A stretch of DNA of 64,000 nucleotides from a virus (IMGVR_UViG_3300031616_000002); one strand, 5' to 3'. Shown: positions 49,172 to 63,867, counted from the stretch's first letter. Numbers and translations are program-made. The notes: a model not told the origin generated them from the sequence alone.

Positions 49172-49488
49172 TGACCGTACTGATGGTGAATTGCGGCACC
49201 GGTGGTGATCATTCGTCCGGCATCGAGGTCGAAGAAGATGATCTTCCTGCGGCGATGCTGCGGGCCGAGGCGGCCAACGATGCCGCAGATACGGCCGCAA
49301 TGGCCTCTTGGCAGGCCCGCCACGACGCCCAGGTAGAAGAGGCCCGGCTTGACCACGAGAGGGCCGTACAGCAGCGTATGGCGGCCGAGCCGCTCGTCGC
49401 GATCATCCAGGAACGCTGCGGACAGATCGGTTGCGATCCGGCCATCGTAGCCCTGGCGAAGCTCATGGGCATCGTGCCCATGGAATGA
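49168..49488 (+). CDS. Small protein coupled to the tail-like gene (possible chaperone)
   Basis: GTGA overlap; alanine-rich helix. Confidence 0.45.
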   Translation: MMTVLMVNCGTGGDHSSGIEVEEDDLPAAMLRAEAANDAADTAAMASWQARHDAQVEEARLDHERAVQQRMAAEPLVAIIQERCGQIGCDPAIVALAKLMGIVPME

Positions 49489-49490
49489 GT

Positions 49491-49535
49491 AGGCTGCCGG
49501 GGATCGAACCCGGATGAGCGCCATATGCTCAGCCT
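49491..49535 (-). ncRNA. Minimal tRNA-like element (acceptor stem, one arm, T arm)
   Basis: Minus strand: AGGCTG AGC-ATATGGC-GCT CAT CCGGG-TTCGATC-CCCGG CAGCCT. Confidence 0.5.
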
Positions 49536-49542
49536 GCCTTGA

Positions 49543-50046
49543 TCAGCTGCTCTGTTCCTTGTCGGCTGCCTCGGCCGCCTTGTCGATGGCATCTCTGACA
49601 ACGCGGTTGAGGTTGATCTCACGCGCCTTGACGAAGCTGCTCATCGCTTCCGTTGCTTGTCGCTGCGCGGTGTTCAGCGTGACCCACTGGGCTGCCTCGT
49701 CGGGAGTGAGGTCTCCCAGCGTCGTGCTGAAGCTGTTGAACTGCTCGGACGACCCGTTGTCCCAGCGCACCATGACCTGGCCACTCCGGGCATGGATCGA
49801 AGTAGCGGTTCCTCGCTTGACGGCGTGAGCTACGGCGTAAGACCGCTGGTCCAGGATGGTGAAACGGATCTCGACCTTCACCGTGGCCTTTTTGGCGAGC
49901 TTGCCGACCTGCGCGGCCAGGGCGCTCTTACTGCTGGCGTCGACCGAGTTGCCCTCATAGGTGGCATACCAGCGGCCCTGGTCGTCCACCCGCACGGGGA
50001 TCTCGACCTCGTGCTTGGTGATGCTTCCCGCCTCATACATGGTCAT
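49543..50046 (-). CDS. Hypothetical protein
   Basis: AAGGAG RBS; GC3 bias. Confidence 0.6.
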   Translation of the reverse strand: MTMYEAGSITKHEVEIPVRVDDQGRWYATYEGNSVDASSKSALAAQVGKLAKKATVKVEIRFTILDQRSYAVAHAVKRGTATSIHARSGQVMVRWDNGSSEQFNSFSTTLGDLTPDEAAQWVTLNTAQRQATEAMSSFVKAREINLNRVVRDAIDKAAEAADKEQSS

Positions 50047-50292
50047 GCTGCTTCTCCTTTACGATTGATCGGGTGGCGCGACCGCCGGGGACACCTCGCA
50101 TGTCCCCGACGGTCGCGGTGGGCTAGTAGCCCTTGCGCGGATCCTTGCTCAGGCCGCACTTCCGGCAGTGGCCACGAAGGGGCCCGTTGCCCGTTCCGCA
50201 GCTGAAGCAGACCCACGACAGGATCGCCGCCGCGACAGACTTCGCCATGATTCACCTCCTCTCCCCTATATAGGGGTCAGCGGGGCCGCCGG

Positions 50293-50745
50293 TCAGGCGT
50301 CGTCGGCGGTACGCACCGGCGCGCACTCGGCGGCCTCGACCTGCCGGGCCACGGTGTCGCTGTACTCCACACCGGCCGCGAGGGCGCTGAGCACCTGGAG
50401 CGCCGATTCCTGGTCGGTGGCGAACAGGTACGGCACGGCACCCCACCATCCGCCGGTGATGTCGAGCGCGATCTTCCCGGCGCTGCTGAAGCCCTCGGCG
50501 AAGCTCGTGTCGCTGCGGGCCGCCTTGAACTCGCCCTCTTCCTCGTCGAAGAAGATGGTGTAGCCGTCCAGGTGTGCGGCGAGGACGCCGAGGCACATGG
50601 TCACACCGTCCGGGACGGGGGCGTCCGGGAGGATCCGGGCGTCGTTGCTGAGACCGGTGATCCACGCGTCCATGAGGAGCACGTGCGGGTTGGCCTCCAC
50701 GAAGGCGAGCACCTTGCTCGCCATCTCCTTGCTCTTGTCGGACAT
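50293..50745 (-). CDS. Hypothetical protein
   Basis: GAAGGGA RBS; MCLGVLAA motif. Confidence 0.55.
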   Translation of the reverse strand: MSDKSKEMASKVLAFVEANPHVLLMDAWITGLSNDARILPDAPVPDGVTMCLGVLAAHLDGYTIFFDEEEGEFKAARSDTSFAEGFSSAGKIALDITGGWWGAVPYLFATDQESALQVLSALAAGVEYSDTVARQVEAAECAPVRTADDA

Positions 50746-50826
50746 GTTGATCCCTTCACTGATGGAATCGGGCTGAGTGCCCGTAGCGACGAACGGCCCC
50801 GGAGGACCGTCCGCCACTATGTGAAC

Positions 50827-51981
50827 TCAGACCAGCGACAGCGCCCGGAACGCGGACTCTTCCAAGTCGGCCGCCTTGTCGGCGTCGGGAACGAGCTGGG
50901 AATAGCTCGTGATGGCCTGCATCAGGCCACCGGCCGTCCGGTCCCCACCGTCGATGAAGTGGGCCAGGATGCCCTTCTGGGTCTCCTGGTCGTAGGCCAG
51001 CTTCTTGCCGACGATCTCGATCGTCTCGACCGGCTCGTCGATCTTCTTACCGGCCTTGGCTTCGGTCTCGGCGATGATCTTCCTCATGTACTCGATGTCA
51101 AGGAAGGTCTTGACGGCGTCCCTGGTCTTGGCGGTGATCAACTCCAGGGACTTCTTCTGGGTGTCGGCCGACCAGTCGATGACACCCTCCTCCAGCTTGC
51201 CGCCGAGGTGCACGGCGCGGAAGGCGTCCCGGCCGATGGTCAGCCCGTTGCCGCAGACCTGGATCACCAGACGCGGCGTGATGCTGAATGCGCCGCCGCC
51301 GACCTCCGAATTGCTGATCTGGAAGCCGGAGAACACCACCGGGTTCTCGACGCCGCGCGCGCCAGTGAAGGGCGAACGGTAGTTCTTCAGCAGCTCGGGT
51401 GCGAGCAGCTGGATCTCCGGGGCGGCGACGCGGACGTACATCCGGGAGTCGCTCAGGTCGGCGCCGACAACGTCGGCCTTGACGCCACTGGCGGTAATGC
51501 CGTCCAGTGCCGCCATCAGGACGTCAAGGTTCTCGACGCTCTTGTACCGGTCGGACAGCAGGGCCCGCGCCACACCATCGCCGTCCTCGCCACGGAACAG
51601 CCGCAGCATGAACCGGCGAGCGTCGGCCTCACGGGTCACCGTCAGGGTGCCGTTGCGCACCCGCTTGTGTCCTTGGAGCCATCCGTTGACATTGCTGTCA
51701 TAGAGATCGGGTGCTTCGGCGCGCAGGCGCCGGATGTAGGCCCGGGAGATGTTGAGCTTCGCGGAGACCCCGGCGTCGAACACCTCCGTGGGGAGGTAGA
51801 ACCCGTCGGCCTCGATCAGCTCACCGTCGGCGCCGACGCCGTCCACGCCGTTGAGGTAGACCTTGCCACCGCGTGAGTGGATCTGCGTTGCGGGGAGGAC
51901 GATGTCGAGCTTCCTGGCCTGCTGCTCCTGGAGCAGCTTGACCATGTCCTGGAGATTGGCATTGCGGGTCGTGGTTTGCAT
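50827..51981 (-). CDS. DUF932-like protein
   Basis: ARALLSDRY..VEN.DV, LSDSRMY and GFQISNSEVG.GAF.I.P....VC.NG. Confidence 0.75.
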   Translation of the reverse strand: MQTTTRNANLQDMVKLLQEQQARKLDIVLPATQIHSRGGKVYLNGVDGVGADGELIEADGFYLPTEVFDAGVSAKLNISRAYIRRLRAEAPDLYDSNVNGWLQGHKRVRNGTLTVTREADARRFMLRLFRGEDGDGVARALLSDRYKSVENLDVLMAALDGITASGVKADVVGADLSDSRMYVRVAAPEIQLLAPELLKNYRSPFTGARGVENPVVFSGFQISNSEVGGGAFSITPRLVIQVCGNGLTIGRDAFRAVHLGGKLEEGVIDWSADTQKKSLELITAKTRDAVKTFLDIEYMRKIIAETEAKAGKKIDEPVETIEIVGKKLAYDQETQKGILAHFIDGGDRTAGGLMQAITSYSQLVPDADKAADLEESAFRALSLV

Positions 51982-52020
51982 GGTATGCCTTCTCTGTGAT
52001 GAGCACTCGGGTGAGTGCGG

Positions 52021-52093
52021 CGCCTCCGGTAGGATTCGAACCTACGGCCTGCCGCTTAGAAGGCGGCTGCTCTATCCGCTGAGCTACGGAGGC
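52021..52093 (-). tRNA. tRNA-Arg(UCU)
   Basis: GCCTCCG acceptor stem, D arm GCTCAGCGGATAGAGC, anticodon loop CT-TCT-AA, T arm GTAGG-TTCGAAT-CCTAC; 3' end reads GCCG, so CCA is not encoded. Confidence 0.95.
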
Positions 52094-52124
52094 GGGTGGC
52101 CGGATTACAGTTCCGGCCGTACTG

Positions 52125-52325
52125 TCATGCGTCGTCGTTGTCGAGCCAGAGGTCGGCTTCGCGCAAGCGCCGGTGCTTCCTGATGAGCCGGTCGAGATCC
52201 TTGCGGATCATCGTCATCTCAAGATCGGTCATCCCGGGAAACTTTCCGGGTGCCATCTTTTGGTAGAAGTCGATGATTCGCTCCCGCGCATCGGCGCGCT
52301 TGAGGTAGTCGATTTCCTTGACCAT
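52125..52325 (-). CDS. Hypothetical protein
   Basis: GGAGG RBS. Confidence 0.5.
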   Translation of the reverse strand: MVKEIDYLKRADARERIIDFYQKMAPGKFPGMTDLEMTMIRKDLDRLIRKHRRLREADLWLDNDDA

Positions 52326-52628
52326 GACTATTCACCTCCTGCCGGACGTACGATGGTTGCGTGCTCCGAGTCTGTGTCGAACAGACTGCCGTCAGCCTCA
52401 TCGGAAGCTCGGATGATCACGAGAGTGCCGTAGTTCCTGGCGCTCTCAACGAATCCGAAGCGACCATCGGTGGTCTTGACGATCTGCCCCAGATAGGCCA
52501 GGTTGCGCTGATCGTCGGAGGCGTGCCTTTCGGGCGGGTTATGCATTATCCTCGCTCCCGTTCATCGGGTCGGGCTGAATGCCCATGGACACCGGCACCC
52601 CCAAAGGGCTGTCGGCGACCATGGGCAT

Positions 52629-52841
52629 TCAGGCGTCGAGAAGGAGCACACCGGCCACCGTGAGGGCGTTGCCGCCGCCACGGGCCGGAGTGATGTAGCC
52701 GCGCTTCCGCAGCCCCGCCAACGTGGCCGGGGGCGTAGCGTCGGGCAGCCGGTGATCTTCGCGCAGAAGCGCGGCGTCACGGGCCTGCCGCATCGTTGAG
52801 GTGAGACCGGTCTTGTCGGTTCTCTTGGAACTACTGGCCAT
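52629..52841 (-). CDS. Small winged-helix-like hypothetical protein
   Basis: Preceded by the AAGCGAGCGAAC motif; TLAGLRKRGYI. Confidence 0.5.
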   Translation of the reverse strand: MASSSKRTDKTGLTSTMRQARDAALLREDHRLPDATPPATLAGLRKRGYITPARGGGNALTVAGVLLLDA

Positions 52842-52966
52842 AGCGTTCGCTCGCTTTCGTGTTGTGGTGCGCACCGACGGAGGGTCTGACGGCCAGCTCC
52901 GCCGGTGCGAGTGTCCCGGCCGCCCTTCGCGGGCCACGTCCATGACGACGATGCCGAGACTGTTGA

Positions 52967-53191
52967 TCAGGTGACGCTGTCGAGATACTCCTTCCCCGTC
53001 ATTTGTTCGATCTTGGAGATTGCCTCTCCCTTGTAGTACTCGCCGACCAGTTCGAGAATGTCCTCGAAGGGAATGGCCACGGTGTCGAGCGGCAATACCC
53101 CCGTGGGGCTTGCGGGGTTGAAATAGACGTCCCCGCTGAAGTCGCCGTTGTGGTGGTAGACGGTTCCCGATGATCCGATGGTGGCGTGCAT
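52967..53191 (-). CDS. Hypothetical protein
   Basis: GAAAGGA RBS; HHNGDFSGDV. Confidence 0.55.
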   Translation of the reverse strand: MHATIGSSGTVYHHNGDFSGDVYFNPASPTGVLPLDTVAIPFEDILELVGEYYKGEAISKIEQMTGKEYLDSVT

Positions 53192-53217
53192 GGGTTGATC
53201 CTTTCGATGGTTGTTGA

Positions 53218-53442
53218 TCAGACGAGCCAGGTCCGGTAGCCGCGTGCGCGGGGGAGCTCGACGATGTCTCCGGCCGGAAGTTCCAGGGCGAGCGCCAGTC
53301 GCACCGCGACCTGCTGCTCCGGATCCATGACGGAATGATCGAACGGCATTGTCAGAACCGTGAACGGATCGTTCTCTATCCGGGCCCGGACGAGCTTGGA
53401 AGTGCTGTTCGTCGGCGGTAGCACCTTGGTCTGGATGTTCAT
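53218..53442 (-). CDS. Hypothetical protein
   Basis: GGAAGG RBS; IQTK.LP.T....RA pattern. Confidence 0.55.
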   Translation of the reverse strand: MNIQTKVLPPTNSTSKLVRARIENDPFTVLTMPFDHSVMDPEQQVAVRLALALELPAGDIVELPRARGYRTWLV

Positions 53443-53729
53443 GATCAGCCTTCCTTGGTTGCGCGCGCCGGAGGCGGCTGGAGCACACCTTTGGCGATGA
53501 GGTACTCGCGCGCGAGACGGATGTGGGATGGGGTGATCGGCTCTTCGCCGCCGGTTTCGCCGGTGACGCGGGCTCCCCCGGGGGCGTCGTCGCCAGCGAC
53601 GTAGGCGACGCGTTTGCCGTCGCTGAAGTGGACGTAGCGACTGTCGTGATCTTCGACGTGCATGACCTTCCTTTCGTGGTTGTCCATGAAACCCGACAGA
53701 GCTGCAACTCTGCCGGGCAACATGATCAA

Positions 53730-54014
53730 CTAGCGCAAAGGATGCAAGATCCGGTGCAGCCTGACGCGGCGGTGCTTTGTCTTCGCGGGCTGCGGTGACG
53801 GTACGGAAGTGGTAGCGGCCGAAGGGGCCACCGACGGTTGCGGCAAGGGATCACAGTTCACAACTGTGGCCGGGGCGGGAGCATTCCCACCCCAGCACTC
53901 GGCATTGTACCCCGGCGACTTGATCGGGGTAGGCGAGGATTCCATGGTCGTTACACCCATGAATCCTGCCAAGATCAATGCGAGTGCAATGATCGCGCGG
54001 CGGTAGCGCTTCAT
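53730..54014 (-). CDS. Putative secreted/membrane protein
   Basis: N-terminal hydrophobic segment, Pro/Thr-rich. Confidence 0.45.
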   Translation of the reverse strand: MKRYRRAIIALALILAGFMGVTTMESSPTPIKSPGYNAECWGGNAPAPATVVNCDPLPQPSVAPSAATTSVPSPQPAKTKHRRVRLHRILHPLR

Positions 54015-54291
54015 CGCTGGTGTGATCTCAGGGCGCCGATGAGCCCGCCAGCCATGAGCCCGAAGATCACTCTCGGGTCACCGGTGATTACTCCGATGAT
54101 CGTGGTCAACACTGCTGCCGCGAACCAGAACACCATCATGGGGCCGGACGACAGTGCGCGCCCGGTAAAGCGCCATCCTCGCATGGCCGAATCCTTTCGT
54201 GTATGGACCATGGCGCCCGGGGTACATGCCGTACCCCGGGCGTGATTCGATTCCTTGCACACGGAACACGCCACAGCCGCCACAACTCGCG

Positions 54292-55452
54292 TTACAGGGT
54301 TGCCCACTGTTCCGCGAATTGCGCAGCACGATAGCCGCGTACTGTGGCGTCTCCGTCGCGCCACTTTTCCGGCCCAATCCCATAACGGGACTTGAGAAGG
54401 TTCGCCAGACGCACTGGCGCACCCGTCTGGGTGACCCAGAGGTCACGCCATGTGCTGACGCTGCTACCGAAGAGCACGGTAACGATTTCCTCGCTACTGA
54501 GCCTGTCGGCACCAGCGTCATCGAAGATGAATTTCAGATCTTCGATGATTCTCTGGGCCGGAAGGATGGTGAGAACGTTCTCGCCCTTACCCTGACTCAG
54601 GGAGCGGCAGGCGTCGTATGCCCGCTGCGGCCATTCGCCACCGGCCTGTTCGGCGATGATGAACAGCGGTTCCCAGATCTGCGCGTCGCGGTCCGTGATG
54701 CCTTCCGGCATACCAGGGCGAGACGCTTCGATCTCTCCGAGGACGCTCCGCACCCATGCGTGACATGCGTCGCGCAGCACATTCAGGTACGGATCATCAT
54801 CGGTTGAGCGGTAGGGATCGAGAGTGACTCCCGACCGCTGTGCCATGGTGTACATGATCGTTCGCGACCTGAGCGGGTGCAGTTGCTGCGCCGACTTGAA
54901 CACGCGGCCCAGACCTGCCATCGCCACCGGCCCGAAGATGCTGATCTTCTTCCCGGCCGCCCGAACCGTCTTCGCCTTCTTCCGGTAACCGGAATTCAGC
55001 GTTTCGATGGTCTTGCGGCCAGCACCGCCCGCACCAATGAACATGTCGATCTCATCGATGAGAACGGTTTCGCGGTCGACACCGATAGCGTCGACAACGC
55101 CCCACGCCGTTGGATCGGTCACCCAATCGCCCCGGTTGGTCAGCTCCTCCAAAACCTGGAGCACGACCGACTTTCCGGATGCGGGGTGATCCGAAAGGAT
55201 CGCCAGGCGCGGCGTCGAGTCGAACACCATGCGGCCGTCTTGATCAACGGCATGCGTGTGCGCGGCCCAAAGCGTCGTCGCGTGCAGGGCGGCGATGGAC
55301 GGGAATTGCGCGAAGCGCGAAAGTTCCGCCTCGATATCGTCCAACACCTGCTCTCCATACCCTTTCTCGGGAGAGGGCGCCGCTTCGGCGGCCATTTCCT
55401 CCCGCTCTTGCTCTTGCTCTTCTATCCCTACCTCGACAACGGTCGTTGTCAT
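54292..55452 (-). CDS. DUF3631-domain P-loop protein
   Basis: TLW.AHTH, PRLAILS..PASGKS, LIDEID, LNSGY and DRDAQIWEPL..IA..AGGEWP.RA. Confidence 0.8.
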   Translation of the reverse strand: MTTTVVEVGIEEQEQEREEMAAEAAPSPEKGYGEQVLDDIEAELSRFAQFPSIAALHATTLWAAHTHAVDQDGRMVFDSTPRLAILSDHPASGKSVVLQVLEELTNRGDWVTDPTAWGVVDAIGVDRETVLIDEIDMFIGAGGAGRKTIETLNSGYRKKAKTVRAAGKKISIFGPVAMAGLGRVFKSAQQLHPLRSRTIMYTMAQRSGVTLDPYRSTDDDPYLNVLRDACHAWVRSVLGEIEASRPGMPEGITDRDAQIWEPLFIIAEQAGGEWPQRAYDACRSLSQGKGENVLTILPAQRIIEDLKFIFDDAGADRLSSEEIVTVLFGSSVSTWRDLWVTQTGAPVRLANLLKSRYGIGPEKWRDGDATVRGYRAAQFAEQWATL

Positions 55453-55537
55453 GGTGTCCTCCTTCCTTGCGTGCCCGGACCCCCATCACGAAGGGCGAGG
55501 GACCGTTGACTTCCGGTCCGGGCTGTGTGCATGACGA

Positions 55538-55930
55538 TTAGGCCACGCCGAACTGAAGATCGGATTGCGGCGTCCCCCACGCTCTCATCCCGCCGACACG
55601 GTGGGGATGGAAGGGGGCCCAATTGGTGGGCTTGACGCGCAGGAACTCGCGGGCCTCATGGGCCTCGATCTCGATGATCTTGTTGAGCACGTTCCGCATG
55701 AGCGACAGGTCGTCGCAGTCCGCGACGATCACGGGGAAGGTCGCGTAGGTGTTGATCTCCTCGCTGTAGCCGTTGTCGGCCTGGTCGCGGTTGGAGTTGC
55801 GGGCCGGGTACTCGATCTTGATCACGATCGTGTCTTCGAACCGGTTCGTGTGGTCGGTCGCGGAGATCTTCCACCCCGGCTTGTAGACCAGACTGCTGTT
55901 GATCAGCTCCAAAGCGCTCTCGACACGCAT
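55538..55930 (-). CDS. Conserved actinophage hypothetical protein
   Basis: YKPGW...E.HEAREFLR...PFHPH. Confidence 0.6.
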   Translation of the reverse strand: MRVESALELINSSLVYKPGWKISATDHTNRFEDTIVIKIEYPARNSNRDQADNGYSEEINTYATFPVIVADCDDLSLMRNVLNKIIEIEAHEAREFLRVKPTNWAPFHPHRVGGMRAWGTPQSDLQFGVA

Positions 55931-56095
55931 GGTGTGATCCTTTCGCGCATGCGTCCTGCCGGGACGCGCGGTGATCCCGTAGCGGGATCGAGCGGTTGAA
56001 TCCCCTGGCGAAGGATCCCGACCATGATCGTCGGTAGATTCAACCTGGCCGCGCACGCGCCGTCTCTCATGCGGCATGTGCGCGGCCAAGATCAG

Positions 56096-56437
56096 TCAGG
56101 CCTCGGGGTGGCGGTAGGCGAGAAACTCGTCCTCCGTCACCGGCGCCGGTGCGTCGACCCCGACCGTGAAGGTGTTGCCCTTGTGATCGGCGACGGCGAG
56201 GGGCTTCGCGTCGTTGGCGTACTCCGTGGCATTGGCGTAGACGGCCACGCCGAATGCCGAGAAGTCTTCCCACACGTCGCCAGCGATGTCGACCGGGTCG
56301 GTCTCGCTGCCGGTGTAGACGAAGCCGCGCTTCCCGCCGTTGAACGTGACGTGGATGTACGGCCGGTCACTGTTCGGCACCCTGTCGGTCAGCTCTTCGA
56401 TGGTCTCTTCGGTTGTCTCTTCGGTGGTCATGATCAA
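56096..56437 (-). CDS. Acidic hypothetical protein
   Basis: AGGAGG RBS. Confidence 0.55.
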   Translation of the reverse strand: MIMTTEETTEETIEELTDRVPNSDRPYIHVTFNGGKRGFVYTGSETDPVDIAGDVWEDFSAFGVAVYANATEYANDAKPLAVADHKGNTFTVGVDAPAPVTEDEFLAYRHPEA

Positions 56438-56643
56438 GCCTCCTGGTTCGATGCGAGCTGAAGCCGGTCCGCTATGCGGGTGGCGATGTCACGGTGCGTG
56501 TAGACGTTGACCACGCGCGTGCCACCCTTCGGACCGCGCCGCATGACGGCGACCCGGCCGTTTGACCGGGACTCGGTGTAATACTCGATCTCCCTGGCGG
56601 CTGCAACCGCCTTGGCGATCTCGATGATCTCTTGGATCTCCAT
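56434..56643 (-). CDS. Hypothetical protein
   Basis: AGAGAG RBS; coupled. Confidence 0.5.
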   Translation of the reverse strand: MEIQEIIEIAKAVAAAREIEYYTESRSNGRVAVMRRGPKGGTRVVNVYTHRDIATRIADRLQLASNQEA

Positions 56644-56857
56644 GATCTTCTCTCTCTTGAGAAGGGCCCGCGCCCCTGCCTTATGTGGCTAGGCAGGGGC
56701 GCGGTGATCACGCTGGCGGGCCGCTGATTCGCCCCGCACGCTCGCCCGGACGGACCGGTATGGGTGCGGGGCCGCGTAGCTACCGTGTGCATGATCCGTG
56801 CCCGGACCCCCATCACGAAGGGCGAGGGACCGTTGACTGCCGGTCCGGGCTAGTTGA

Positions 56858-57421
56858 TCAGGGATGCGCTCTGTTGAGTCGTTCGTCGCGGTTCCAAATC
56901 GGGAACCAGCGCATGCCGCCCGCGCCTTCCCAGTTGGACTCTCGCGCAGCCGCTCGCGATGCTTGCGCGATCATGGCTTCTCGCGGGTGTTGCACGGTGG
57001 CGCGCCGGGGCGATTGCGTCATGCCGTCGCCGTTTGCGCCGCCACGGGGCCCGTAGCGGCCCTCTTTGCCGTGGCCTGACCTGAGACTGACGTGCGGGCC
57101 GTCGAGCTCGCGAGTGGGAAGGGCGTACTTGATCGTGTCCTGGTGCTGAGTGGTGGTGAGGCTGTAGATCACGTCGGGGACGTGCCAGCGGCCATCCGCT
57201 CCGTGCCACGCGATCGGAGTTGTGTAGCTGTACACGATGTAGTCCGGCGTGTCGGCGACCATCTGAGACCGGAAGGACTCCGGAATGTCGCCGGAGCTGA
57301 GTGCCAGCGCATCCTTGAAAAGGACGCCGAACATGTTCCCGCTGGTGATCTGAAACGGCTTCAGCGCGATCAGCTTTTCGCGAATCGCCATGCTGTCGCC
57401 GAGCTTGACCGTCCTGGCCAT
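56858..57421 (-). CDS. Conserved early phage protein (YSY.TPIAW...YS.TT..HQ)
   Basis: Motif; GAAAGGA RBS. Confidence 0.6.
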   Translation of the reverse strand: MARTVKLGDSMAIREKLIALKPFQITSGNMFGVLFKDALALSSGDIPESFRSQMVADTPDYIVYSYTTPIAWHGADGRWHVPDVIYSLTTTQHQDTIKYALPTRELDGPHVSLRSGHGKEGRYGPRGGANGDGMTQSPRRATVQHPREAMIAQASRAAARESNWEGAGGMRWFPIWNRDERLNRAHP

Positions 57422-57535
57422 GATGTGATCCTTTCCTATCGCGTCTGCCGACTGGGATTGTCGGCTGAGTGCCCGGACCCCCATCACGAAGGGCGAGGGA
57501 CCGTTGACTGCCGGTCCGGGCTAGTTGATCAGGTG

Positions 57536-57760
57536 TTACGTCTCGGGGAATCCAGCCGCAGCGAGGAACTTGTCTCGCTTGAAAGCGTAGGAACCGTGGT
57601 GGTGCGCGGCGAGCGTGGACGCCAGCTCACGAGCCGCGACCTCCAACGCCCAGAGTGCGGCGTCTTTCTTGATCTGCGTCTTGCCGCTGATCTCGACGAC
57701 TCGCCTCGCTTCGGCTATGGCGTCCGCCACTGTCTGATAGTGGGCGTTGTTGAATGCCAT
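57536..57760 (-). CDS. Hypothetical protein
   Basis: GAAAGGA RBS; F.RDKFL.A.G tail. Confidence 0.55.
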   Translation of the reverse strand: MAFNNAHYQTVADAIAEARRVVEISGKTQIKKDAALWALEVAARELASTLAAHHHGSYAFKRDKFLAAAGFPET

Positions 57761-57928
57761 GATTTGATCCTTTCTAGCGGAATCGATGCTCAGATGCGAG
57801 GTGACCGCATCGGCATGTCTCGGGTGGATCGGTGCGAAGTACGAACGGCATCCAATTCCACTGGAACTGGATACAGCCGCACTCGGCGCGATGGTCGCAC
57901 TCATGGGGAGTCAGCCTGGTTGCCATGA

Positions 57929-58525
57929 TCACCTCGCCGCTCGGTGCGGAAGGTCGGCAGTGTCATCGACATGGACTGTCCACGTGACTGCCTGGACTGT
58001 TGACGGCAGCTCTCCGAGCCGCTGCGCCGCTTCCCGGTAGCAATGCGCCAGTAGCGCATAGCGGGGCCCGTCAAGGCCACGCACGCGGTTTCCGTAGATC
58101 TCGCCAATGGCAAGATCGTGCGCATGCCGGTCAATCACTACAGCGTCATCATCGAACGGGTCGACGATGCAGCGGTAGAAGTTGAGTGTCTTCTGACCCG
58201 TCGCCAGCACCTCGGCCGGATCCGCTCCGGCCATGATCTTGGCAACCTTGGCGAGGCGATCGCGCGTGGAGCCAACGGGCTCACGCCGGAAGATCTTCTC
58301 GGCCATGGTTTGGTTGCGGCGCCAGGATGCTTGCGCCGAAAGGGCCGCGATCACTCCTGCACCCGCAACCGGATTACCGTCGGAGATCATGATGGCAAGA
58401 TCGTGTGCGTTGCGGTACCAGGACCGCCCGCGCGCGAGTTGATCTTCACTGGCGCGATTCCACACAGCGATGATCCGCTGCACGTACTCTTCGCGCGTCT
58501 CGGCGTCCGGCCGAATCGGGATCAT
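57929..58525 (-). CDS. Conserved phage protein, possible HhH-glycosylase-related fold
   Basis: G..WY..AH, AGVIAALS....W..N, G.KT.NFY and VVIDRHA...Y...A....E.P..VQA.TW. Confidence 0.55.
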   Translation of the reverse strand: MIPIRPDAETREEYVQRIIAVWNRASEDQLARGRSWYRNAHDLAIMISDGNPVAGAGVIAALSAQASWRRNQTMAEKIFRREPVGSTRDRLAKVAKIMAGADPAEVLATGQKTLNFYRCIVDPFDDDAVVIDRHAHDLAIGEIYGNRVRGLDGPRYALLAHCYREAAQRLGELPSTVQAVTWTVHVDDTADLPHRAAR

Positions 58526-58612
58526 GGTGTGATCCTCTCTCTATGGGATGGAGTGACCATCCATGCGACGGCCGGTCACACTCCGGCCGAAGCAAAGCGG
58601 GTCAGTCGTTGA

Positions 58613-58840
58613 TCAGTTCGTGGCGTAACCGTCAAGCTCCGCCAAGATCATCAGGCCCTCGGTCAAGCTGGTGATCTTCCAGACTTGGATCTCGCCTTGG
58701 CGCTCAGTGATCTGTCGCGCCAACTCTTCCATGGTTGCCGGAAGGTAGCGGCTCATCGCCCGGTCAAGATCGGCCGCCTTGCACTGGTATCCACCGTGCA
58801 GCGCGCTCCGGAGATTGACTGTGTCAATCGGTTGGATCAT
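58613..58840 (-). CDS. Hypothetical protein
   Basis: AGAGAGGA RBS. Confidence 0.5.
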   Translation of the reverse strand: MIQPIDTVNLRSALHGGYQCKAADLDRAMSRYLPATMEELARQITERQGEIQVWKITSLTEGLMILAELDGYATN

Positions 58841-58870
58841 GGTGTGATCCTCTCTCTATGGGATGGAGTG

Positions 58871-58942
58871 GCGACCAGAGGATTTGAACCTCGGCAAGAT
58901 CGTTGCCTACCATGTCAGTCGCTTGACTGGCATCATGATCGC
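58871..58942 (-). ncRNA. 72-nt tRNA-like cloverleaf with non-canonical arms
   Basis: Acceptor GCGATCA/TGGTCGC, arms CAGTC/GACTG and GGCAA/TTGCC, T arm GAGG-TTCAAAT-CCTC. Confidence 0.5.
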
Positions 58943-58978
58943 TTTGGTGCGGGATATCGGGGCGCACCCCCCGGAAGA

Positions 58979-59227
58979 TCAGAGTGCAGCGAGTTGATCA
59001 CTCAACTCGTTGATCAGGTTGTCGGCGAACGGACCTTCCCAGTCATCGGCAAGGATGATCAGCCGACCGACCATGTCGGCGGCGTCGTCGATCTTGACGG
59101 TGTCCCGGAGACTGTAGATCAGCGGGACGGCGGCGGGGTGCGGGTGCTCCCACCGGTTGATCACATCGTTCATGATCTCGCGCAGGGTGCGGACGCGATT
59201 GCGCCACGCATAGGGGCTGACGGTCAT
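58979..59227 (-). CDS. Hypothetical protein
   Basis: GAAAGGA RBS. Confidence 0.5.
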   Translation of the reverse strand: MTVSPYAWRNRVRTLREIMNDVINRWEHPHPAAVPLIYSLRDTVKIDDAADMVGRLIILADDWEGPFADNLINELSDQLAAL

Positions 59228-59304
59228 TGCATGATCCTTTCATCTCTGATGGTCCATGGCAACGGCCGGACCCGCTACCGGGGCCCGTGCCGCACCATGA
59301 TCGA

Positions 59305-59511
59305 TCAGGGAAGGTCGCTTGCGTCCAGTCGCAAATCCCAGTCATTGCCAGGAAGTGTGCGAAGCCAGCGCGCTATGCAATCTCTGGCGAAGTTGCCTGG
59401 AATGCCCTCTGCGGAAGTTCCTTCGGTGGACTCTTCCCAGAATTCGATCAGGTCTCCCGCTTTCTGCATCAAGCGCAGTGCTACGGCTTGCTTCATTTCA
59501 CGTTCGGTCAT
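59305..59511 (-). CDS. Hypothetical protein (cassette)
   Basis: Lies between repeats B1 and B2; stop codon supplied by the repeat. Confidence 0.55.
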   Translation of the reverse strand: MTEREMKQAVALRLMQKAGDLIEFWEESTEGTSAEGIPGNFARDCIARWLRTLPGNDWDLRLDASDLP

Positions 59512-59583
59512 GATCGTTCCTCTCTCTGATGGTCCATGGCAACGGCCGGACCCGCTACCGGGCCCGTGCCGCACCATGATCGA

Positions 59584-59754
59584 TCAGGCGATCTCTCGGC
59601 CTGCCCATTGGTTCAACTTGGCCGTCACGTCCTCGGCCTGATGGGGCAAGGCGTAGGCAGCGATGACGGTTGTGCGCACGGTCTCGCCCGTTGTGCTGTC
59701 CAGTTCACGTCGGACAACGACAACGTCCTCTTGGACCTCATACGTGCTTATCAT
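59584..59754 (-). CDS. Hypothetical protein (cassette)
   Basis: Lies between repeats B2 and B3. Confidence 0.5.
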   Translation of the reverse strand: MISTYEVQEDVVVVRRELDSTTGETVRTTVIAAYALPHQAEDVTAKLNQWAGREIA

Positions 59755-59836
59755 GAGCGCTCCTCTCTCTGATGGTTCATGGCAACGGCCGGACCCGCTA
59801 CCGGGCCCGTGCCGCACCATGATCGATCAGGGAAGA

Positions 59837-60109
59837 TCACTTGATGCCAGCGAGAGTCTTCAGCTCTGCCTTGATCCGTCGCGCGTCCGGGCCGCGCCAC
59901 GTCGTGGCGTTGCTCAGGAAGTACATGATCACCTCGTCGGCAGGGTCCATGCCGTAGCGGTCCGTGATGTCGACGAGCGACTTCATGGCGTTCAGGTACG
60001 GCACGGCGCCGAAGTAGACCGTACTCTCACCCTTGGCGTTGCGCCACGTGGCGGAGATCTCTCCAGCGATCGTGAAGATCGGGCGAGGGGTGGTAACGGT
60101 GTCGGTCAT
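59837..60109 (-). CDS. Conserved early phage protein
   Basis: YFGAVPYL.AM..L....D.YG.D....I.YFLSNA.TWRG..AR.IKAEL. Confidence 0.7.
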   Translation of the reverse strand: MTDTVTTPRPIFTIAGEISATWRNAKGESTVYFGAVPYLNAMKSLVDITDRYGMDPADEVIMYFLSNATTWRGPDARRIKAELKTLAGIK

Positions 60110-60177
60110 GATCGTTCCTCTCTCTGTGTGTCCATGACCACGCACGGCCGGTTTCCCGGTTCGTGCATGATCAGAAG

Positions 60178-60651
60178 TCACGCACCGAGGGTGTTGATCT
60201 TCGGGTCCAAGCGGCAGACCTCGCACGGGTAGGCCTGCCCGATGAGGCAGTCCATCAGGGCGACGTCATACACGCTCCGCTGGAGCGCTTCCCCGTCGGC
60301 CCGTGCTGTGTCCGCATCGGCGTGCCAGCGGTTGTAGTCCAACTCCACCGTGCCGGTTAGGTAGTTCTGCCAGCCGCCGAAGATCATCTCGGGGTGCTTG
60401 ATCGCGTCGGCGTAGTGGTCGGCGATGAATCCGACCAGGGTCGGGAACAAGATCGAGATCTCATCCCGCTTGAGGGTGATCGTCTCGGCGTGGCCAACGG
60501 TGTGACCGTCAGCCGGTTCGAACCCCTTGCGATCAAGGGAGAATCCCCCATGATCATGCAAGGCGCTGTAGAACTGGTGGGCAAGATCGTTGATCTCGAC
60601 CGGGTAGCGCCGGAGCGCTTCGGTGGCGGTCTCGCTGATTGGCTCAAACAT
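60178..60651 (-). CDS. Hypothetical protein
   Basis: HGGFS....G..P..G..VG...FGGW...VELD; AGAGAGGA RBS from repeat C. Confidence 0.6.
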   Translation of the reverse strand: MFEPISETATEALRRYPVEINDLAHQFYSALHDHGGFSLDRKGFEPADGHTVGHAETITLKRDEISILFPTLVGFIADHYADAIKHPEMIFGGWQNYLTGTVELDYNRWHADADTARADGEALQRSVYDVALMDCLIGQAYPCEVCRLDPKINTLGA

Positions 60652-60718
60652 GGGTTGATCCTCTCTGAGTGGCCACGGGGCCGCGCATCCTTGACGGATG
60701 CGCGCCCCCGGTAGCTGA

Positions 60719-60925
60719 TCAGCTGAGACTGGCCGTGGCGACAGTGGTGCGGGTGTCGCCGAGGTAGGGCAGGCCGGACGGGGTGCGACCGTATGTCTCT
60801 GCGACATAGTCGGCGATCACTGCGCCTGCGATCTTGCGCGCTTCAGACTCCGAAGCGGCTTCGGTTTCGATCTCGTACTCTTGCGCCCCGTTGAGACTGG
60901 TCATCTTGACAACATAGGTGCTCAT
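60719..60925 (-). CDS. Hypothetical protein (cassette)
   Basis: Lies between repeats C1 and C2. Confidence 0.5.
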   Translation of the reverse strand: MSTYVVKMTSLNGAQEYEIETEAASESEARKIAGAVIADYVAETYGRTPSGLPYLGDTRTTVATASLS

Positions 60926-60991
60926 GATCATTCCTCTCTGAGTGGCCACGGGGCCGCGCATCCTTGACGGATGCGCGCCCCCGGTAGCTGA

Positions 60992-61258
60992 TCAGCTAGG
61001 GTCGGAGTTGCGAACGAGCGTTGCGGCCGGAACCATGCGCGGCCCGGACCACACAAGTGCGGACGGGTCGAAACCGGTTACGGTGACGTTTGCGACGTCG
61101 AACCATTGGCCGTGAGTCGCGGCCAAGTCGTCGTCACTTTCCGGCAGCCTGACAAGCACTTCCGGATGGTTATCGTAGTTGTCTCGATCGGTCACAACTC
61201 CCGTACCCCGAGGGGTTGTGACCGTTGCGCCGAGACGTGGCATCGTTGCGTCAAACAT
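60992..61258 (-). CDS. Hypothetical SH3-like protein (cassette)
   Basis: LGATV.TP.G.GVV; lies between repeats C2 and C3. Confidence 0.5.
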   Translation of the reverse strand: MFDATMPRLGATVTTPRGTGVVTDRDNYDNHPEVLVRLPESDDDLAATHGQWFDVANVTVTGFDPSALVWSGPRMVPAATLVRNSDPS

Positions 61259-61329
61259 GATCAATTCCTCTCTGAGTGGCCACGGGGCCGCGCATCCTTG
61301 ACGGATACGCGCCCCCGGAAGCTGATCAG

Positions 61330-61530
61330 CTAGGGCAGTTCCCAACCGGTTTCTCCGATCGGGTAACGGATGCGCCGGTTGTACAGCGGAAGTTCCGGCT
61401 CAATATCGCCGATATCTTCCTTGACCATCTGTGCGGCACGTTGTTCGATTATGCCTCGATCGTTGTAGTCGTAGTTTGCGAGCTCGCGCGCGAGACGCTC
61501 CATGATCTCAAGATCTGTTCGGATGCTCAT
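61330..61530 (-). CDS. Hypothetical protein (cassette)
   Basis: Lies between repeats C3 and C4. Confidence 0.5.
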   Translation of the reverse strand: MSIRTDLEIMERLARELANYDYNDRGIIEQRAAQMVKEDIGDIEPELPLYNRRIRYPIGETGWELP

Positions 61531-61596
61531 GATCATTCCTCTCTGAGTGGCCACGGGGCCGCGCATCCTTGACGGATGCGCGCCCCCGGTAGCTGA

Positions 61597-61812
61597 TCAG
61601 CGAGACGACGCGGCCAGCCATGCGGCTGTACCGGTTGGGCCCAGGTCGTGCGCGTTCTGCATCCCGTCCGCGAAACCGTCATTGAACGACGTTACGGACG
61701 TGTCGACGCCGGTCGTGGGCATCGACGTGAAGTGGTTGCCAGCGAGGAATGCGCCGCTGATTACCAGGATTGCGAGGATCACAAGCGCAGCGAGGTTCTT
61801 TCCACCGGCCAT
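61597..61812 (-). CDS. Small membrane/secreted protein
   Basis: Hydrophobic N-terminus; GAAAGGA RBS. Confidence 0.45.
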   Translation of the reverse strand: MAGGKNLAALVILAILVISGAFLAGNHFTSMPTTGVDTSVTSFNDGFADGMQNAHDLGPTGTAAWLAASSR

Positions 61813-61901
61813 GTTGATCATTCCTTTCGGGGTGACTCTGGACTGACTGTCCATGGCCGTGCACAAGCCAATGAGAGTGACTTGTGCACGGCCATGATCG
61901 G

Positions 61902-62258
61902 TCAGACATGGAACATGTGCTGCATTCCGACCGCGACAATGAAGGCGACGATTCCCGCAACGACAAGGGTTACGAACCCCTGCCAAACCTGCTTTGCGGA
62001 CGCTTCAAAGTGAGCCTTGATCGAAACGTCGAGCTCGACGATCTTGGCGTTGAACACGTGCGGGGGGAAGTGCCGGTGGTCGCGCCCAATCTTGGAACTG
62101 CGCGACACGTGCACCAAACCGGGGCTTTCCCCGTTCGGTGCTTCCCGCACGTTCTCGAATCGCCACGCCTGACCCTTGGCGATTCCCGCGCAGCCGTGAA
62201 GGGTAGACCCTTCCGGAATTTCCTGCGCGGTTTCAACGTGAACCAGTTTCGGGCTCAT
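61902..62258 (-). CDS. Hypothetical protein with C-terminal TM segment
   Basis: GAGAGGA RBS; FVTLVVAGIVAFIVAVG. Confidence 0.55.
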   Translation of the reverse strand: MSPKLVHVETAQEIPEGSTLHGCAGIAKGQAWRFENVREAPNGESPGLVHVSRSSKIGRDHRHFPPHVFNAKIVELDVSIKAHFEASAKQVWQGFVTLVVAGIVAFIVAVGMQHMFHV

Positions 62259-62300
62259 GGGTTGATCCTCTCTCGGTTGATCAACAGCGAGATACTGTCG

Positions 62301-62365
62301 TGGCAAGATCAGGATTCGAACCTGCCTGCAAAGGATCTTGCAGCGCTCCCCTGAACGATCTTGCC
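62301..62365 (-). ncRNA. 65-nt tRNA-like element
   Basis: GGCAAGA/TCTTGCC-A acceptor, mini D arm GTTC/GAGC, arm CTGCA/TGCAG, T arm CAGG-TTCGAAT-CCTG. Confidence 0.55.
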
Positions 62366-62477
62366 TCGACTCAAGTCCTGTCACAGTCCGGGCCAGTGAT
62401 CATCCCCCACAAGGGGATATCGATCATGGCGCGTGCTTGAGATCTTGAGTCGGTGTAGCACAAGCGATCTTTCCCGG

Positions 62478-62584
62478 TTCCCAGTGCCGAGCACTGACCT
62501 ACGGGGTGTGTCACCTGCTTTGATCTTGCCGTCCGTTGTGGCGATCTCGGTGCGTTGGATTCCCAGTGCTCAGCACTGACCTAC
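62478..62584. repeat. 25-bp direct repeat with internal palindrome (62478 and 62560)
   Basis: TTCCCAGTGC(CG/TC)AGCACTGACCTAC. Confidence 0.8.
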
Positions 62585-62999
62585 CAACATCAAACACGTG
62601 AGGGGACGCGAGCGGAATTGAAAGCTTGATCATGACCCTATTAAGGCGTGAGGGTTCTGCCCTCCCGCAACGGCGGGGACGATACCCGGTAGGTGCTCCC
62701 GCGCGGTAAGATCAGATGGACCTTGATCCAATGAAGGAGGGGGATCGCGTTACCCCTGCCCGCACGAACTAGTGGATCATGGTTTCCGGCTGATCATCCC
62801 CGATTTCAAGATCATCGGGGGCGGTTGGCCTTGCCATGCCGATCAAGAGGATCTGAAGATCATCCACAAGATCCACTTGAGTGGATCTCTGCGACGTTCG
62901 CGCGGTTCGCGCGGGGCCGGATGATCAATTCCCTTGATCGGTTGGTACACCTTAAGTGTATCGCCGCAGGTGGACCGCGTCTCGATGGATCTCCCCTGA

Positions 63000-63480: not shown

Positions 63481-63576
63481 TGGATAGTATACCGATCTTC
63501 GCATAGATATTCAGATTCTTGATCAACTCTCGTGTATAGTTATGTGGATCTTTGCATGGTTATATTCAAGATCATC

Positions 63577-63808: not shown

Positions 63809-63867
63809 GATGGAAAATAGTCTGTGTCCCCTACATGCATAAATAATTCTGAAAGGAGGTGGTGGTC

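What the first reader, a model, noticed from the sequence alone, without database searches (positions are those of the whole stretch)
49491..62365. Three non-canonical tRNA-like folds punctuating the early transcript
Seen, all on the minus (sense) strand: a 65-nt element before the first early gene (62301), a 72-nt element mid-region (58871) and a 45-nt element after the last gene (49491). Each has an acceptor-like stem and a canonical T loop (TTCRAAT/TTCGATC) but no proper 7-nt anticodon loop or D arm. Established: RNase P/Z recognise the acceptor-T-arm half, and tRNA mimics serve as processing signals or decoys. Inference: processing marks that cut the polycistronic RNA, or decoys for anticodon nucleases and tRNA-sensing defences.
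Basis: partly seen in the sequence, partly recalled or inferred. Interest (0 to 1): 0.7.

Follow-up and report, generated by a model that had tools for sequence, protein, structure and literature searches.

The report
tRNA-like folds between phage early genes
Three short RNA folds that copy the acceptor/T-arm half of a tRNA, but cannot decode, sit in gaps of this soil actinophage's early operon; relatives conserve them, and they probably mark where host tRNA-trimming enzymes cut or protect the long early message, though no RNA data could be obtained.

Summary
All three elements are on the sense (minus) strand in non-coding gaps. Each has an acceptor-like closing stem stacked on a T arm with a canonical T loop, and none has a 7-nt anticodon loop. 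ARAGORN calls none of them. Rfam's tRNA model gives element 1 only 23.4 bits, below the 29-bit threshold. A shuffle test shows they are not chance.

Relatives keep them:
- Element 1 is the best-conserved segment of its leader, at 94-97% identity against 67-88% for the spacer.
- Element 3 shows two compensatory changes, which is weak evidence (p about 0.04).
- Different tRNA-like elements fill other gaps in related phages. One such pair shows 3 compensatory changes and no broken pairs.
- 80 related viral contigs hold 16 non-tRNA sense-strand hits against about 3 expected. The cultured Streptomyces phage phiScoe10 has them too.

The one true tRNA (Arg-TCT) occupies the same kind of gap, and the other gaps hold long hairpins.

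My best reading (about 0.48) is tRNA-derived processing or stability signals for RNase P and RNase Z, like plant mitochondrial t-elements. A decoy for anticodon nucleases is unlikely.

This scan has noted the same class on many other phage DNAs. I found no publication describing it.

The parts
62301..62365 (-). E1: a 65-nt cloverleaf-like tRNA mimic in the conserved leader, ending 42 nt before the ATG (62258) of the first early gene. It has an 8/4 acceptor/T-stem layout, T loop UUCGAAU and no 7-nt anticodon loop.
   Evidence: tRNA 23.4 bits, below the 29-bit gathering score; z -2.75. It is conserved in L001, L006, L008 and L009.
58871..58942 (-). E2: a 72-nt tRNA-like fold between the 82-aa gene (stop at 58979) and the 75-aa gene (ATG at 58840). 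It has a 7-bp acceptor stem, a 4-bp T stem, T loop UUCAAAU and a 5-nt 'anticodon' loop.
   Evidence: (z -2.87). It is identical in the close relatives L003 and L006 and absent at this slot in L001.
58958..58973 (-). A GC-rich hairpin (CGGGG-GGUGCG-CCCCG) between the upstream stop codon and E2. The true tRNA and the elements in relatives are preceded by similar hairpins.
   Evidence: Read directly from the sequence.
49490..49535 (-). E3: a 45-nt mini tRNA-like element plus discriminator A. It has a 6-bp closing stem, a small hairpin carrying GG, and a 5-bp T arm with loop UUCGAUC. It lies in the 54-nt gap between the last early gene (stop at 49543) and the convergent + strand gene (stop at 49488).
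   Evidence: It is conserved in L010-L013, with two compensatory changes against L013.
52019..52093 (-). The true tRNA-Arg(TCT), in the same kind of slot: stop, hairpin GGCCGGA..UCCGGCC, tRNA, CACUC, RBS, ATG.
   Evidence: (73.9 bits).
60646..61604 (-). Context: four copies of the 81-nt intergenic hairpin family D1 (stop codon, about 20-bp hairpin, CCACUCAGAGAGGA RBS). These fill the slots that have no tRNA-like element.
   Evidence: z -7.5.
59229..59831 (-). Context: three copies of intergenic hairpin family D2.
   Evidence: z -4.3.
55471..57533 (-). Context: three copies of intergenic family D3 (9-bp closing stem, 5' linker, inner hairpin stacked on the 3' strand, no T-loop consensus).

Best explanation
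E1, E2 and E3 are tRNA-derived structured RNA elements within the polycistronic early transcript. They have lost the decoding parts of a tRNA (the anticodon loop, and largely the D arm). They keep the acceptor/T-arm stack and the T loop, which is the part that RNase P, RNase Z and the CCA-adding enzyme recognise.

The likely mechanism, all of it inferred:
- RNase P cuts at the 5' end of the fold. The upstream message is then left ending in its protective hairpin.
- The downstream message either starts with a base-paired tRNA-like 5' end, or, after an RNase Z cut behind the discriminator, with a 30-45-nt leader carrying the AGAGAGGA RBS.
- E3 would define or protect the 3' end of the operon.
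- The long hairpin families in the other gaps would play the equivalent role for double-strand-specific RNases, or act as stabilisers.

What is shown: the folds, their positions, their conservation and their recurrence in related phages. What is inferred: transcription through them, and every cleavage step.
For: 1. Not chance. There are 5 acceptor-plus-T-arm hits against 0.54 expected, and 0 of 200 shuffles reach 5. All are on the sense strand of the early region.

2. Same slot as a real tRNA. tRNA-Arg, E1, E2 and E4 (in L001) each lie between a stop codon (often followed by a hairpin) and an RBS/ATG 30-45 nt downstream. Excising the true tRNA must itself cut this mRNA.

3. Purifying selection on E1. 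It is 94-97% identical in L001, L008 and L009, where the adjoining spacer is 67-88% and the start of the CDS is 72%. All 24 pairs are kept in 5 sequences, and the three stem substitutions all preserve the pair.

4. E3. Against L013 (upstream protein 48% identical) the T arm is invariant. Seven of the 8 changes are neutral or favourable to the structure, including 2 compensatory pairs. In a simulation P(at least 2 compensatory pairs) is 0.04.

5. Non-homologous analogues in other gaps of relatives. These are E4 (L001:2800-2888, z -3.6) and E5 (L007:4267-4361, z -3.1). E5 compared with its orthologue in L125 shows 33 pairs, 3 compensatory changes, 6 one-sided changes and 0 broken pairs.

6. Survey of 80 IMG/VR contigs that share the DUF7178 gene (0.8 Mb). 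There are 21 sense-strand hits (16 of them not ARAGORN tRNAs) against 3.2 +/- 1.6 in shuffles. The antisense strand has 4 against 8. The hits range from near-complete tRNAs without an anticodon arm down to 41-45-nt minihelices.

7. The cultured Streptomyces phage phiScoe10 carries such elements in intergenic gaps.

8. Precedent. The tRNA-like module of M. smegmatis YrlA, with a 7-bp acceptor stem, is cut by RNase P and receives CCA (PMC4201824). Plant mitochondrial t-elements are associated with mapped mRNA 5' and 3' ends and are thought to direct RNase P/Z cleavage (PMC1920247).
Against: No RNA evidence of any kind was available. No ends were mapped, and it is not even shown that E1 lies downstream of the transcription start. 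No promoter could be placed.

E1 has no compensatory double changes. The leader upstream of it is almost as conserved (90-93%), so its conservation could reflect a DNA-level regulatory role.

E2 has only identical orthologues, so its conservation cannot be tested.

E3's fold is not significant on its own (z -0.95), and its covariation rests on one divergent sequence (p about 0.04).

No 3' CCA is encoded. The stacks are 11-12 bp with a mismatch in E2 and only a 6-bp closing stem in E3, so their competence as substrates is assumed.

The sense-strand bias would also arise from decayed tRNA genes that were co-oriented with the operon.

My detector requires intact stems, so the observation that acceptor stems are intact is partly a result of how the elements were found.
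Confidence: 0.48

Rival explanations
1. The elements are decaying tRNA pseudogenes. The phage lineage once carried several tRNA genes in its early operon, and E1-E3 are non-functional relics.
For: A true tRNA sits in the same kind of slot. E1 still scores 23.4 bits on the tRNA model. The survey shows a continuum from nearly complete tRNAs to minihelices. The patchy presence of E2 and E4 among close relatives fits gain and loss.
Against: E1 is the most conserved segment of its region. The stems of E1, E3 and E5 stay paired across divergence, with compensatory changes in E3 and E5. The internal arms are rebuilt into stable hairpins rather than eroded. In the survey the non-canonical elements outnumber true tRNAs, 16 to 7, and in the window 3 to 1, which is unexpected for neutral relics in compact phage genomes.
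Confidence: 0.2
2. The elements are released small RNAs that act as decoys or sponges for host factors that recognise the acceptor/T-arm half of tRNA. Candidates are toxins or defence nucleases and nucleotidyltransferases that act on the tRNA 3' end or acceptor stem, modification enzymes, and the CCA-adding enzyme. The phage's Thg1-like tRNA-repair gene could be part of the same strategy.
For: The acceptor/T-arm half is kept and the anticodon parts are lost. The phage encodes a Thg1-like 3'-5' polymerase at 21537-22640 (Pfam Thg1, 3.1e-18), which suggests pressure on tRNA ends. The elements are expressed early, if they are transcribed with the operon.
Against: No target is known. There are only one to three copies per genome here. 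The fixed position just upstream of an RBS is not needed for a decoy. Anticodon nucleases in particular cannot be the target, because there is no anticodon loop.
Confidence: 0.13
3. The function is at the DNA level. The elements would be recombination boundaries for gene-cassette exchange, part of the early operator/promoter region (E1), or an attP-like tRNA 3' segment (E3).
For: Gene insertions and deletions among relatives lie next to the structured elements. Examples are an extra 120-aa gene just upstream of the E2 hairpin in L003/L006 and an extra small gene before E3 in L010/L013 with a duplicated junction. E1 lies in a leader that is conserved throughout and has paired operator-like dyads upstream.
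Against: Both strands of the acceptor stem are present, and their changes are compensated, which an att core does not need. No genome in 185,579 species holds the 3' half of E1. The E3 T-arm pattern hits only scattered, unrelated tRNAs and coding sequences. The T-loop consensus and the strong sense-strand bias point to RNA or to tRNA ancestry.
Confidence: 0.1
4. Chance resemblance, at least for E3.
For: A T-arm motif alone occurs at about chance frequency. The E3 fold has z -0.95. One detector hit inside an ORF (52363-52461) shows that chance hits do occur.
Against: The shuffle tests argue against it, as do the conservation of E3 in four relatives with an invariant T arm and the features E3 shares with minihelices in other phages.
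Confidence: 0.04

Closest known systems
t-elements of plant mitochondria (Forner et al. 2007, PMC1920247) and the mitochondrial tRNA-punctuation model
   Same: They are tRNA-like structures inside polycistronic or long transcripts, next to mRNA 5' or 3' ends, and are thought to act as cis-signals for RNase P and/or RNase Z (abstract read). True tRNAs and degenerate tRNA-like folds are used side by side.
   Different: That system is organellar, not a phage. There the mRNA ends were mapped, and here none are. The phage elements sit at a fixed 30-45 nt before an RBS and alternate with long hairpin cassettes.
tRNA-like module of bacterial Y RNAs (YrlA), Chen et al. 2014, PMC4201824
   Same: It is an actinobacterial (M. 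smegmatis) non-tRNA with T and D arms and a 7-bp acceptor-like stem. It is cut by RNase P in vitro and in vivo and receives CCA. Some mycobacteriophages encode YrlA-like RNAs.
   Different: YrlA also has a Ro60-binding stem and lies beside an rsr gene. No Y-RNA family matched here even at E up to 10. The elements here are embedded between protein-coding cistrons.
RNase III processing hairpins between the early genes of phage T7
   Same: They are intergenic structured signals that cut a phage polycistronic early mRNA into stable single-gene messages. The hairpin families D1-D3 of this window look like this kind.
   Different: The T7 sites are plain hairpins for RNase III. E1-E3 imitate tRNA and would use RNase P/Z.
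Stable tRNA-like RNAs (species 1 and 2) in the tRNA cluster of phage T4, and other non-tRNA RNase P substrates such as the P1/P7 C4 RNA precursor (from my own knowledge; not checked)
   Same: They are phage-encoded RNAs with acceptor-like stems that are matured by host RNase P.
   Different: Those are dedicated small-RNA genes, not spacers between protein genes.
Non-canonical 8/4 and 9/3 tRNAs (Mukai et al. 2017, PMC5389517)
   Same: E1 has an 8-bp acceptor and a 4-bp T stem (a 12-bp branch), a layout reported for some bacterial and phage tRNAs. That paper also notes irregular tRNA-like sequences in soil metatranscriptomes.
   Different: Those tRNAs keep a 7-nt anticodon loop, and many decode. 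E1 has a 6- or 8-nt loop without U33 in all five orthologues.
'tRNA top-half mimic' / mini-tRNA elements noted earlier by this scan in other phages (AI notes, unpublished)
   Same: They share the same architecture (closing stem stacked on a T arm, GG in the linker, sense strand, between early genes of Streptomyces-type and other phages). I found such elements independently in IMG/VR contigs and in phiScoe10.
   Different: Those notes describe arrays of 5-14 near-identical 41-43-nt copies. This window has three dissimilar elements, two of them full cloverleaves without an anticodon loop, mixed with hairpin cassettes.

Membership tests
Canonical tRNA (Rfam RF00005 / ARAGORN) | Scores at or above the Rfam gathering score (29 bits), or is called by ARAGORN | tested here: not met
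   E1 scores 23.4 bits. E2 and E3 have no match at E up to 10. ARAGORN calls only tRNA-Arg.
Canonical tRNA (Rfam RF00005 / ARAGORN) | A 7-nt anticodon loop on a 5-bp stem | tested here: not met
   The E1 loop is 6 or 8 nt (7 or 9 nt in L008, without U33). The E2 loop is 5 nt. E3 has no anticodon arm.
Canonical tRNA (Rfam RF00005 / ARAGORN) | An acceptor stem stacked on a T arm with T loop UUCRANY | tested here: met
   E1 is 8/4 with UUCGAAU, E2 is 7/4 with UUCAAAU, and E3 is 6/5 with UUCGAUC.
Phage intergenic tRNA-like elements (mini-tRNA / top-half mimics; this scan's earlier notes, unpublished) | A closing stem of 6-8 bp directly stacked on a T arm with a canonical T loop, on the sense strand, in a gap between early genes | tested here: met
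   This holds for E1-E3. The same architecture is enriched on the sense strand of 80 related contigs, 21 hits against 3.2 expected, and is present in phiScoe10.
Phage intergenic tRNA-like elements (mini-tRNA / top-half mimics; this scan's earlier notes, unpublished) | About 41-45 nt, with no D or anticodon arm, GG in the 5' linker, discriminator A | tested here: inconclusive
   E3 fits. It is 45 nt, has GG 10-12 nt before the T stem as in L126, L137, L139 and phiScoe10, and is followed by A then CUC. E1 (65 nt) and E2 (72 nt) keep extra arms, so they are larger variants. No covariance model was built.
t-elements (tRNA-like mRNA processing signals) | mRNA 5' or 3' ends mapped at the border of the tRNA-like fold, with cleavage by RNase P/Z | not testable with these tools
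YrlA / bacterial Y RNA | A match to the Y-RNA-like families, with a Ro60-binding stem | tested here: not met
   No Y-RNA family appears among the matches at E up to 10 in 48.5-64 kb. The presence of an rsr gene was not examined.
attP core derived from the 3' end of a host tRNA | A block identical to the 3' part of a host tRNA gene, next to an integrase gene, with no need for the 5' acceptor strand | tested here: not met
   The 3' half of E1 is absent from 185,579 species genomes. The E3 pattern hits only scattered, unrelated tRNAs and coding sequences, none with the E3 flanks. Both acceptor strands are present and compensated. The integrase genes of the window were not surveyed.

The most novel reading that the evidence does not exclude
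Actinophages, and possibly many other phages, run a tRNA-punctuation system of their own. In this reading, tRNA genes embedded in early operons have repeatedly been turned into anticodon-less processing and stability modules (hairpin, then tRNA-like fold, then RBS). Host RNase P/Z would then cut the early polycistronic RNA into defined, protected messages. The window would show the intermediate stages (a true tRNA, full cloverleaves without an anticodon loop, a 45-nt minihelix) side by side with hairpin cassettes. A further possibility is that the released folds also titrate host factors that attack tRNA ends, which would link them to the phage's Thg1-like repair enzyme.
Probability: 0.35. Interest if true: 0.75.

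Novelty: new variant of a known kind. Interest (0 to 1): 0.55.

Why it matters
If host tRNA-processing enzymes do cut or protect phage early messages at these folds, this would be a bacterial-virus counterpart of mitochondrial tRNA punctuation. It would explain many unannotated gaps between early genes in actinophage genomes. It would give annotators a new feature class that tRNA finders reject. It would also make RNase P/Z a host dependency factor for phage early gene expression.

The hypothesis is directly testable, because a cultured Streptomyces coelicolor phage (phiScoe10) carries such elements.

This window adds a useful evolutionary series: a true tRNA, two anticodon-less cloverleaves and a minihelix in equivalent slots.

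Tried and rejected
- Whole genome. None is held for this window, and the records behind L006 and L007 are not held either.
- Near relatives by DNA. There were none in phages or plasmids. Only the DUF7178 gene matched Streptomyces phages, at about 70%.
- Exact 3' halves of E1, E2 and E3 are absent from viral contigs. The E1 3' half is absent from metagenome contigs and genome contigs.
- The search for related loci found nothing with the first early protein in metagenome contigs or with the single DUF7178 protein in viral contigs. Relatives came instead from protein look-ups and from a DUF7178 alignment.
- The attP idea for E3 was rejected.
- A 122-aa ORF over E3 was rejected. It has no homologue other than itself, its frame is broken in L013, and substitutions fall on the third codon positions of the opposite-strand ORF.
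- The hairpin after E3 (about 49459-49483) as a terminator was rejected. It lies inside the convergent gene and is not conserved in L013.
- A tRNA-Sec or suppressor-tRNA reading of E1 was rejected. It scores 22-26 bits against a 47-bit threshold, has no UCA, and has no 7-nt loop.
- The early arm of Streptomyces phage BartholomewSD has no such elements, so they are not universal in this phage group.
- Relaxed T-loop searches found no further credible element in the window.
- A covariance model of the mini elements was not built, because MAFFT could not register the 5' acceptor strands.
- Six literature searches found no description of tRNA-like punctuation in phages.

Full report
**Context.** The window is part of an uncultured actinophage-like genome with 63% GC. 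Genes run on the + strand up to about 47.7 kb. A block of small genes runs on the minus strand from 62.3 kb down to 49.5 kb. The nearest cultured relatives by protein are Streptomyces phages of the Arquatrovirinae, whose right arm has the same layout. No whole genome is held for the window.

**The observation.** ARAGORN and Rfam at gathering threshold find one tRNA, Arg(TCT), at 52019-52093 on the minus strand. The three elements are at the stated coordinates.
- E1 (62301-62365) folds into a compact cloverleaf (z -2.75). It has an 8-bp acceptor stem, a 4-5-bp D-like hairpin with loop AGGG, a hairpin with a 6- or 8-nt loop in place of the anticodon arm, almost no variable region, and a 4-bp T stem with loop UUCGAAU. 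At a relaxed threshold Rfam gives it 23.4 bits for tRNA, below the 29-bit cut-off. Its orthologues score 22-26 bits on the tRNA-Sec model because of the long acceptor stem.
- E2 (58871-58942) has a 7-bp acceptor stem, a long hairpin where the D arm would be, a 5-bp stem with a 5-nt loop, and a 4-bp T stem with loop UUCAAAU (z -2.87). A shorter 52-nt alternative uses a second 5' strand.
- E3 (49491-49535) is a three-way junction of 45 nt: a 6-bp closing stem, a small hairpin, and a 5-bp T arm with loop UUCGAUC. Its fold energy alone is unremarkable (z -0.95).

**Chance.** A T-arm motif alone is found 8 times in the window. My own estimate from motif frequencies, not a tool result, is about 7 expected by chance. 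A T arm followed directly by a strand that pairs with a segment 20-110 nt upstream is found 5 times. Dinucleotide shuffles give a mean of 0.54, and none of 200 reaches 5. All five are on the minus strand between 49 and 62 kb. One is the true tRNA. One (52363-52461; 99 nt, two G-U pairs) lies inside an ORF and I regard it as chance. Relaxing the T-loop pattern adds nothing credible.

**Position.** E1 ends 42 nt before the ATG of the first early gene (62258). E2 lies between a stop codon (58979) and the next ATG (58840), preceded by a GC hairpin and followed by CACUCC..AGAGAGAGGAUCAC..AUG. One pipeline had called a 122-aa minus-strand ORF over E3. It has no homologue other than itself. Its frame is broken in L013, and 36 of 63 substitutions fall on the third codon positions of the opposite-strand ORF 49168-49488. 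E3 therefore lies in the 54-nt gap between two convergent genes, directly after the last early gene.

**The other gaps of the early region.** They hold repeated structured cassettes. There are three families of 65-81 nt, each consisting of a stop codon, a long hairpin and an RBS (z down to -7.5). The true tRNA-Arg has the same context: stop, hairpin, tRNA, CACUC, RBS, ATG.

**Relatives.** Protein look-ups gave contigs of related phages.
- E1 is present in L001/L002, L006, L008 and L009. In the three diverged relatives it is 94-97% identical. The spacer to the ATG is 67-88%, the start of the CDS is 72% and the upstream leader is 90-93%. All 24 pairs are kept in all five sequences. The three stem substitutions are one-sided and keep the pair, and there is no double change.
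- E2 is found only in close relatives, where it is identical. L001 lacks it at that slot. L001 has a different 89-nt tRNA-like element, E4 (2800-2888, z -3.6), in a gap where the window has a plain hairpin.
- E3 is present in L010-L013, even where an extra small gene has been inserted before it. Against L013 it has 8 changes, all transitions and none in the T arm. Two pairs are compensated, one mismatch is repaired and one pair is broken. Two or more compensated pairs arise in 4% of simulations.
- The more distant L007 has a 95-nt tRNA-like element, E5, after its DUF7178 gene, plus a true tRNA-Ile. E5 compared with its orthologue in L125 keeps all 33 predicted pairs, with 3 compensatory and 6 one-sided changes.

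**Survey.** An alignment of DUF7178 proteins retrieved 80 IMG/VR loci totalling 0.8 Mb. My detector gives 21 hits on the sense strand (16 of them not ARAGORN tRNAs) against 3.2 +/- 1.6 in shuffles. On the other strand it gives 4 against 8. The hits form a series: tRNAs with a good D arm but a truncated anticodon arm, then larger rebuilt cloverleaves, then 41-45-nt minihelices with GG in the linker. Many are followed by A-CUC and an RBS 20-45 nt downstream, and several are preceded by a hairpin plus GGUCCA. The cultured Streptomyces phage phiScoe10 has three such elements in intergenic gaps. BartholomewSD has none.

**Earlier notes.** Earlier notes of this scan describe the same class in many other phages. 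I used them as leads and checked the architecture myself.

**Interpretation.** The decoding parts are lost or rebuilt. The part recognised by RNase P, RNase Z and the CCA-adding enzyme is kept, conserved, and placed exactly where a true tRNA also sits in the operon. The most economical reading is tRNA-derived processing or stability signals.

There are precedents. An actinobacterial tRNA-like module with a 7-bp acceptor stem is cut by RNase P and receives CCA (PMC4201824). Plant mitochondrial t-elements lie at mapped mRNA ends and are thought to direct cleavage by RNase P/Z (PMC1920247). From my own knowledge, the hairpin cassettes recall the RNase III sites of the T7 early region.

No promoter could be placed upstream of E1.

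**Rivals.**
- Neutral tRNA relics are disfavoured by the conservation data.
- Decoys for acceptor-end-directed factors remain possible. The phage has a Thg1-like gene. Anticodon nucleases are unlikely targets.
- DNA-level roles are possible, since insertions and deletions among relatives border the elements. They are not favoured, because both acceptor strands are present and compensated and there is no host tRNA match.

**Novelty.** Six literature searches found no description of such elements in phages. The mechanism class (t-elements, tRNA punctuation) is known. I file this as a new variant of a known kind. This window is a modest but instructive example, and the scan has seen the class before on other DNA.

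Noticed in passing
window 52000-64000, especially 62400-63500: GATC is 2.5-fold over-represented in the window (538 against 215 expected). It rises to 52, 70 and 91 sites per 4 kb in the last 12 kb. The roughly 1.1-kb non-coding stretch upstream of the early operon is built largely of TGATCA, CCATGG and CACGTG words. The early arm of BartholomewSD shows no such excess.
   Followed up: partly
window 55471-61604 (minus strand): Three families of repeated intergenic cassettes (stop codon, long hairpin, RBS) separate the small early genes. Gene insertions and deletions among relatives fall at these boundaries.
   Followed up: partly
window early intergenic gaps, e.g. 58865-58870, 60940-60946, 52010-52016: A motif (C)CACUC follows almost every structured element (hairpin families, E2, E3, E4, the true tRNA-Arg) a few nucleotides before the AGAGAGGA RBS. 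Its role is unknown.
   Followed up: no
L007:4261-4266, L125:7682-7687, L137:5498-5503, L139:5545-5550: In more distant relatives the tRNA-like elements are preceded by a hairpin followed by GGUCCA(U). A cut at the 5' end of the fold would leave an upstream RNA ending in hairpin-CCA.
   Followed up: no
window 21537-22640 (+): A Thg1-like 3'-5' nucleotidyltransferase gene (Pfam Thg1, 3.1e-18; PHROG 'tRNA-His guanylyltransferase'). There is no tRNA-His in the window.
   Followed up: partly
window 49156-49524 (-) versus 49168-49488 (+): A pipeline called a 122-aa ORF on the minus strand of a Logan contig. Substitution pattern and stop codons in L013 show the real gene is the 106-aa + strand ORF.
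   Followed up: yes
window 52363-52461 (-): A 99-nt detector hit (T loop TTCGACA, acceptor stem with 2 G-U pairs) lies inside a 72-aa ORF and is conserved in L006/L010. I treat it as chance within coding sequence.
   Followed up: partly
window 56798-56862, 57469-57533, 55471-55535 (-): Repeat family D3 has the same topology as the mini tRNA-like elements: a 9-bp closing stem, a 13-nt 5' linker containing GCAGUC as in L137, and an inner hairpin stacked on the 3' strand. It lacks the T-loop consensus, so it could be a further-derived relative.
   Followed up: no
window 62478-62502 and 62560-62584: Two copies of a 25-nt box containing the dyad CAGTGC-N3-GCACTG lie 82 nt apart, upstream of the conserved leader. 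They could be operators or a promoter of the early operon.
   Followed up: no
window 52019-52093 versus L010:2954-3026: The anticodon stem of tRNA-Arg(TCT) differs between the window and a close relative by a wholesale compensated replacement, while the rest of the tRNA is nearly identical.
   Followed up: no
L026, L050, L052 (Patescibacteria/Saccharibacteria genomes): A second, partial copy of the 3' half of tRNA-Pro lies about 80 nt downstream of the full gene in several CPR genomes. This was seen while testing the attP idea.
   Followed up: no
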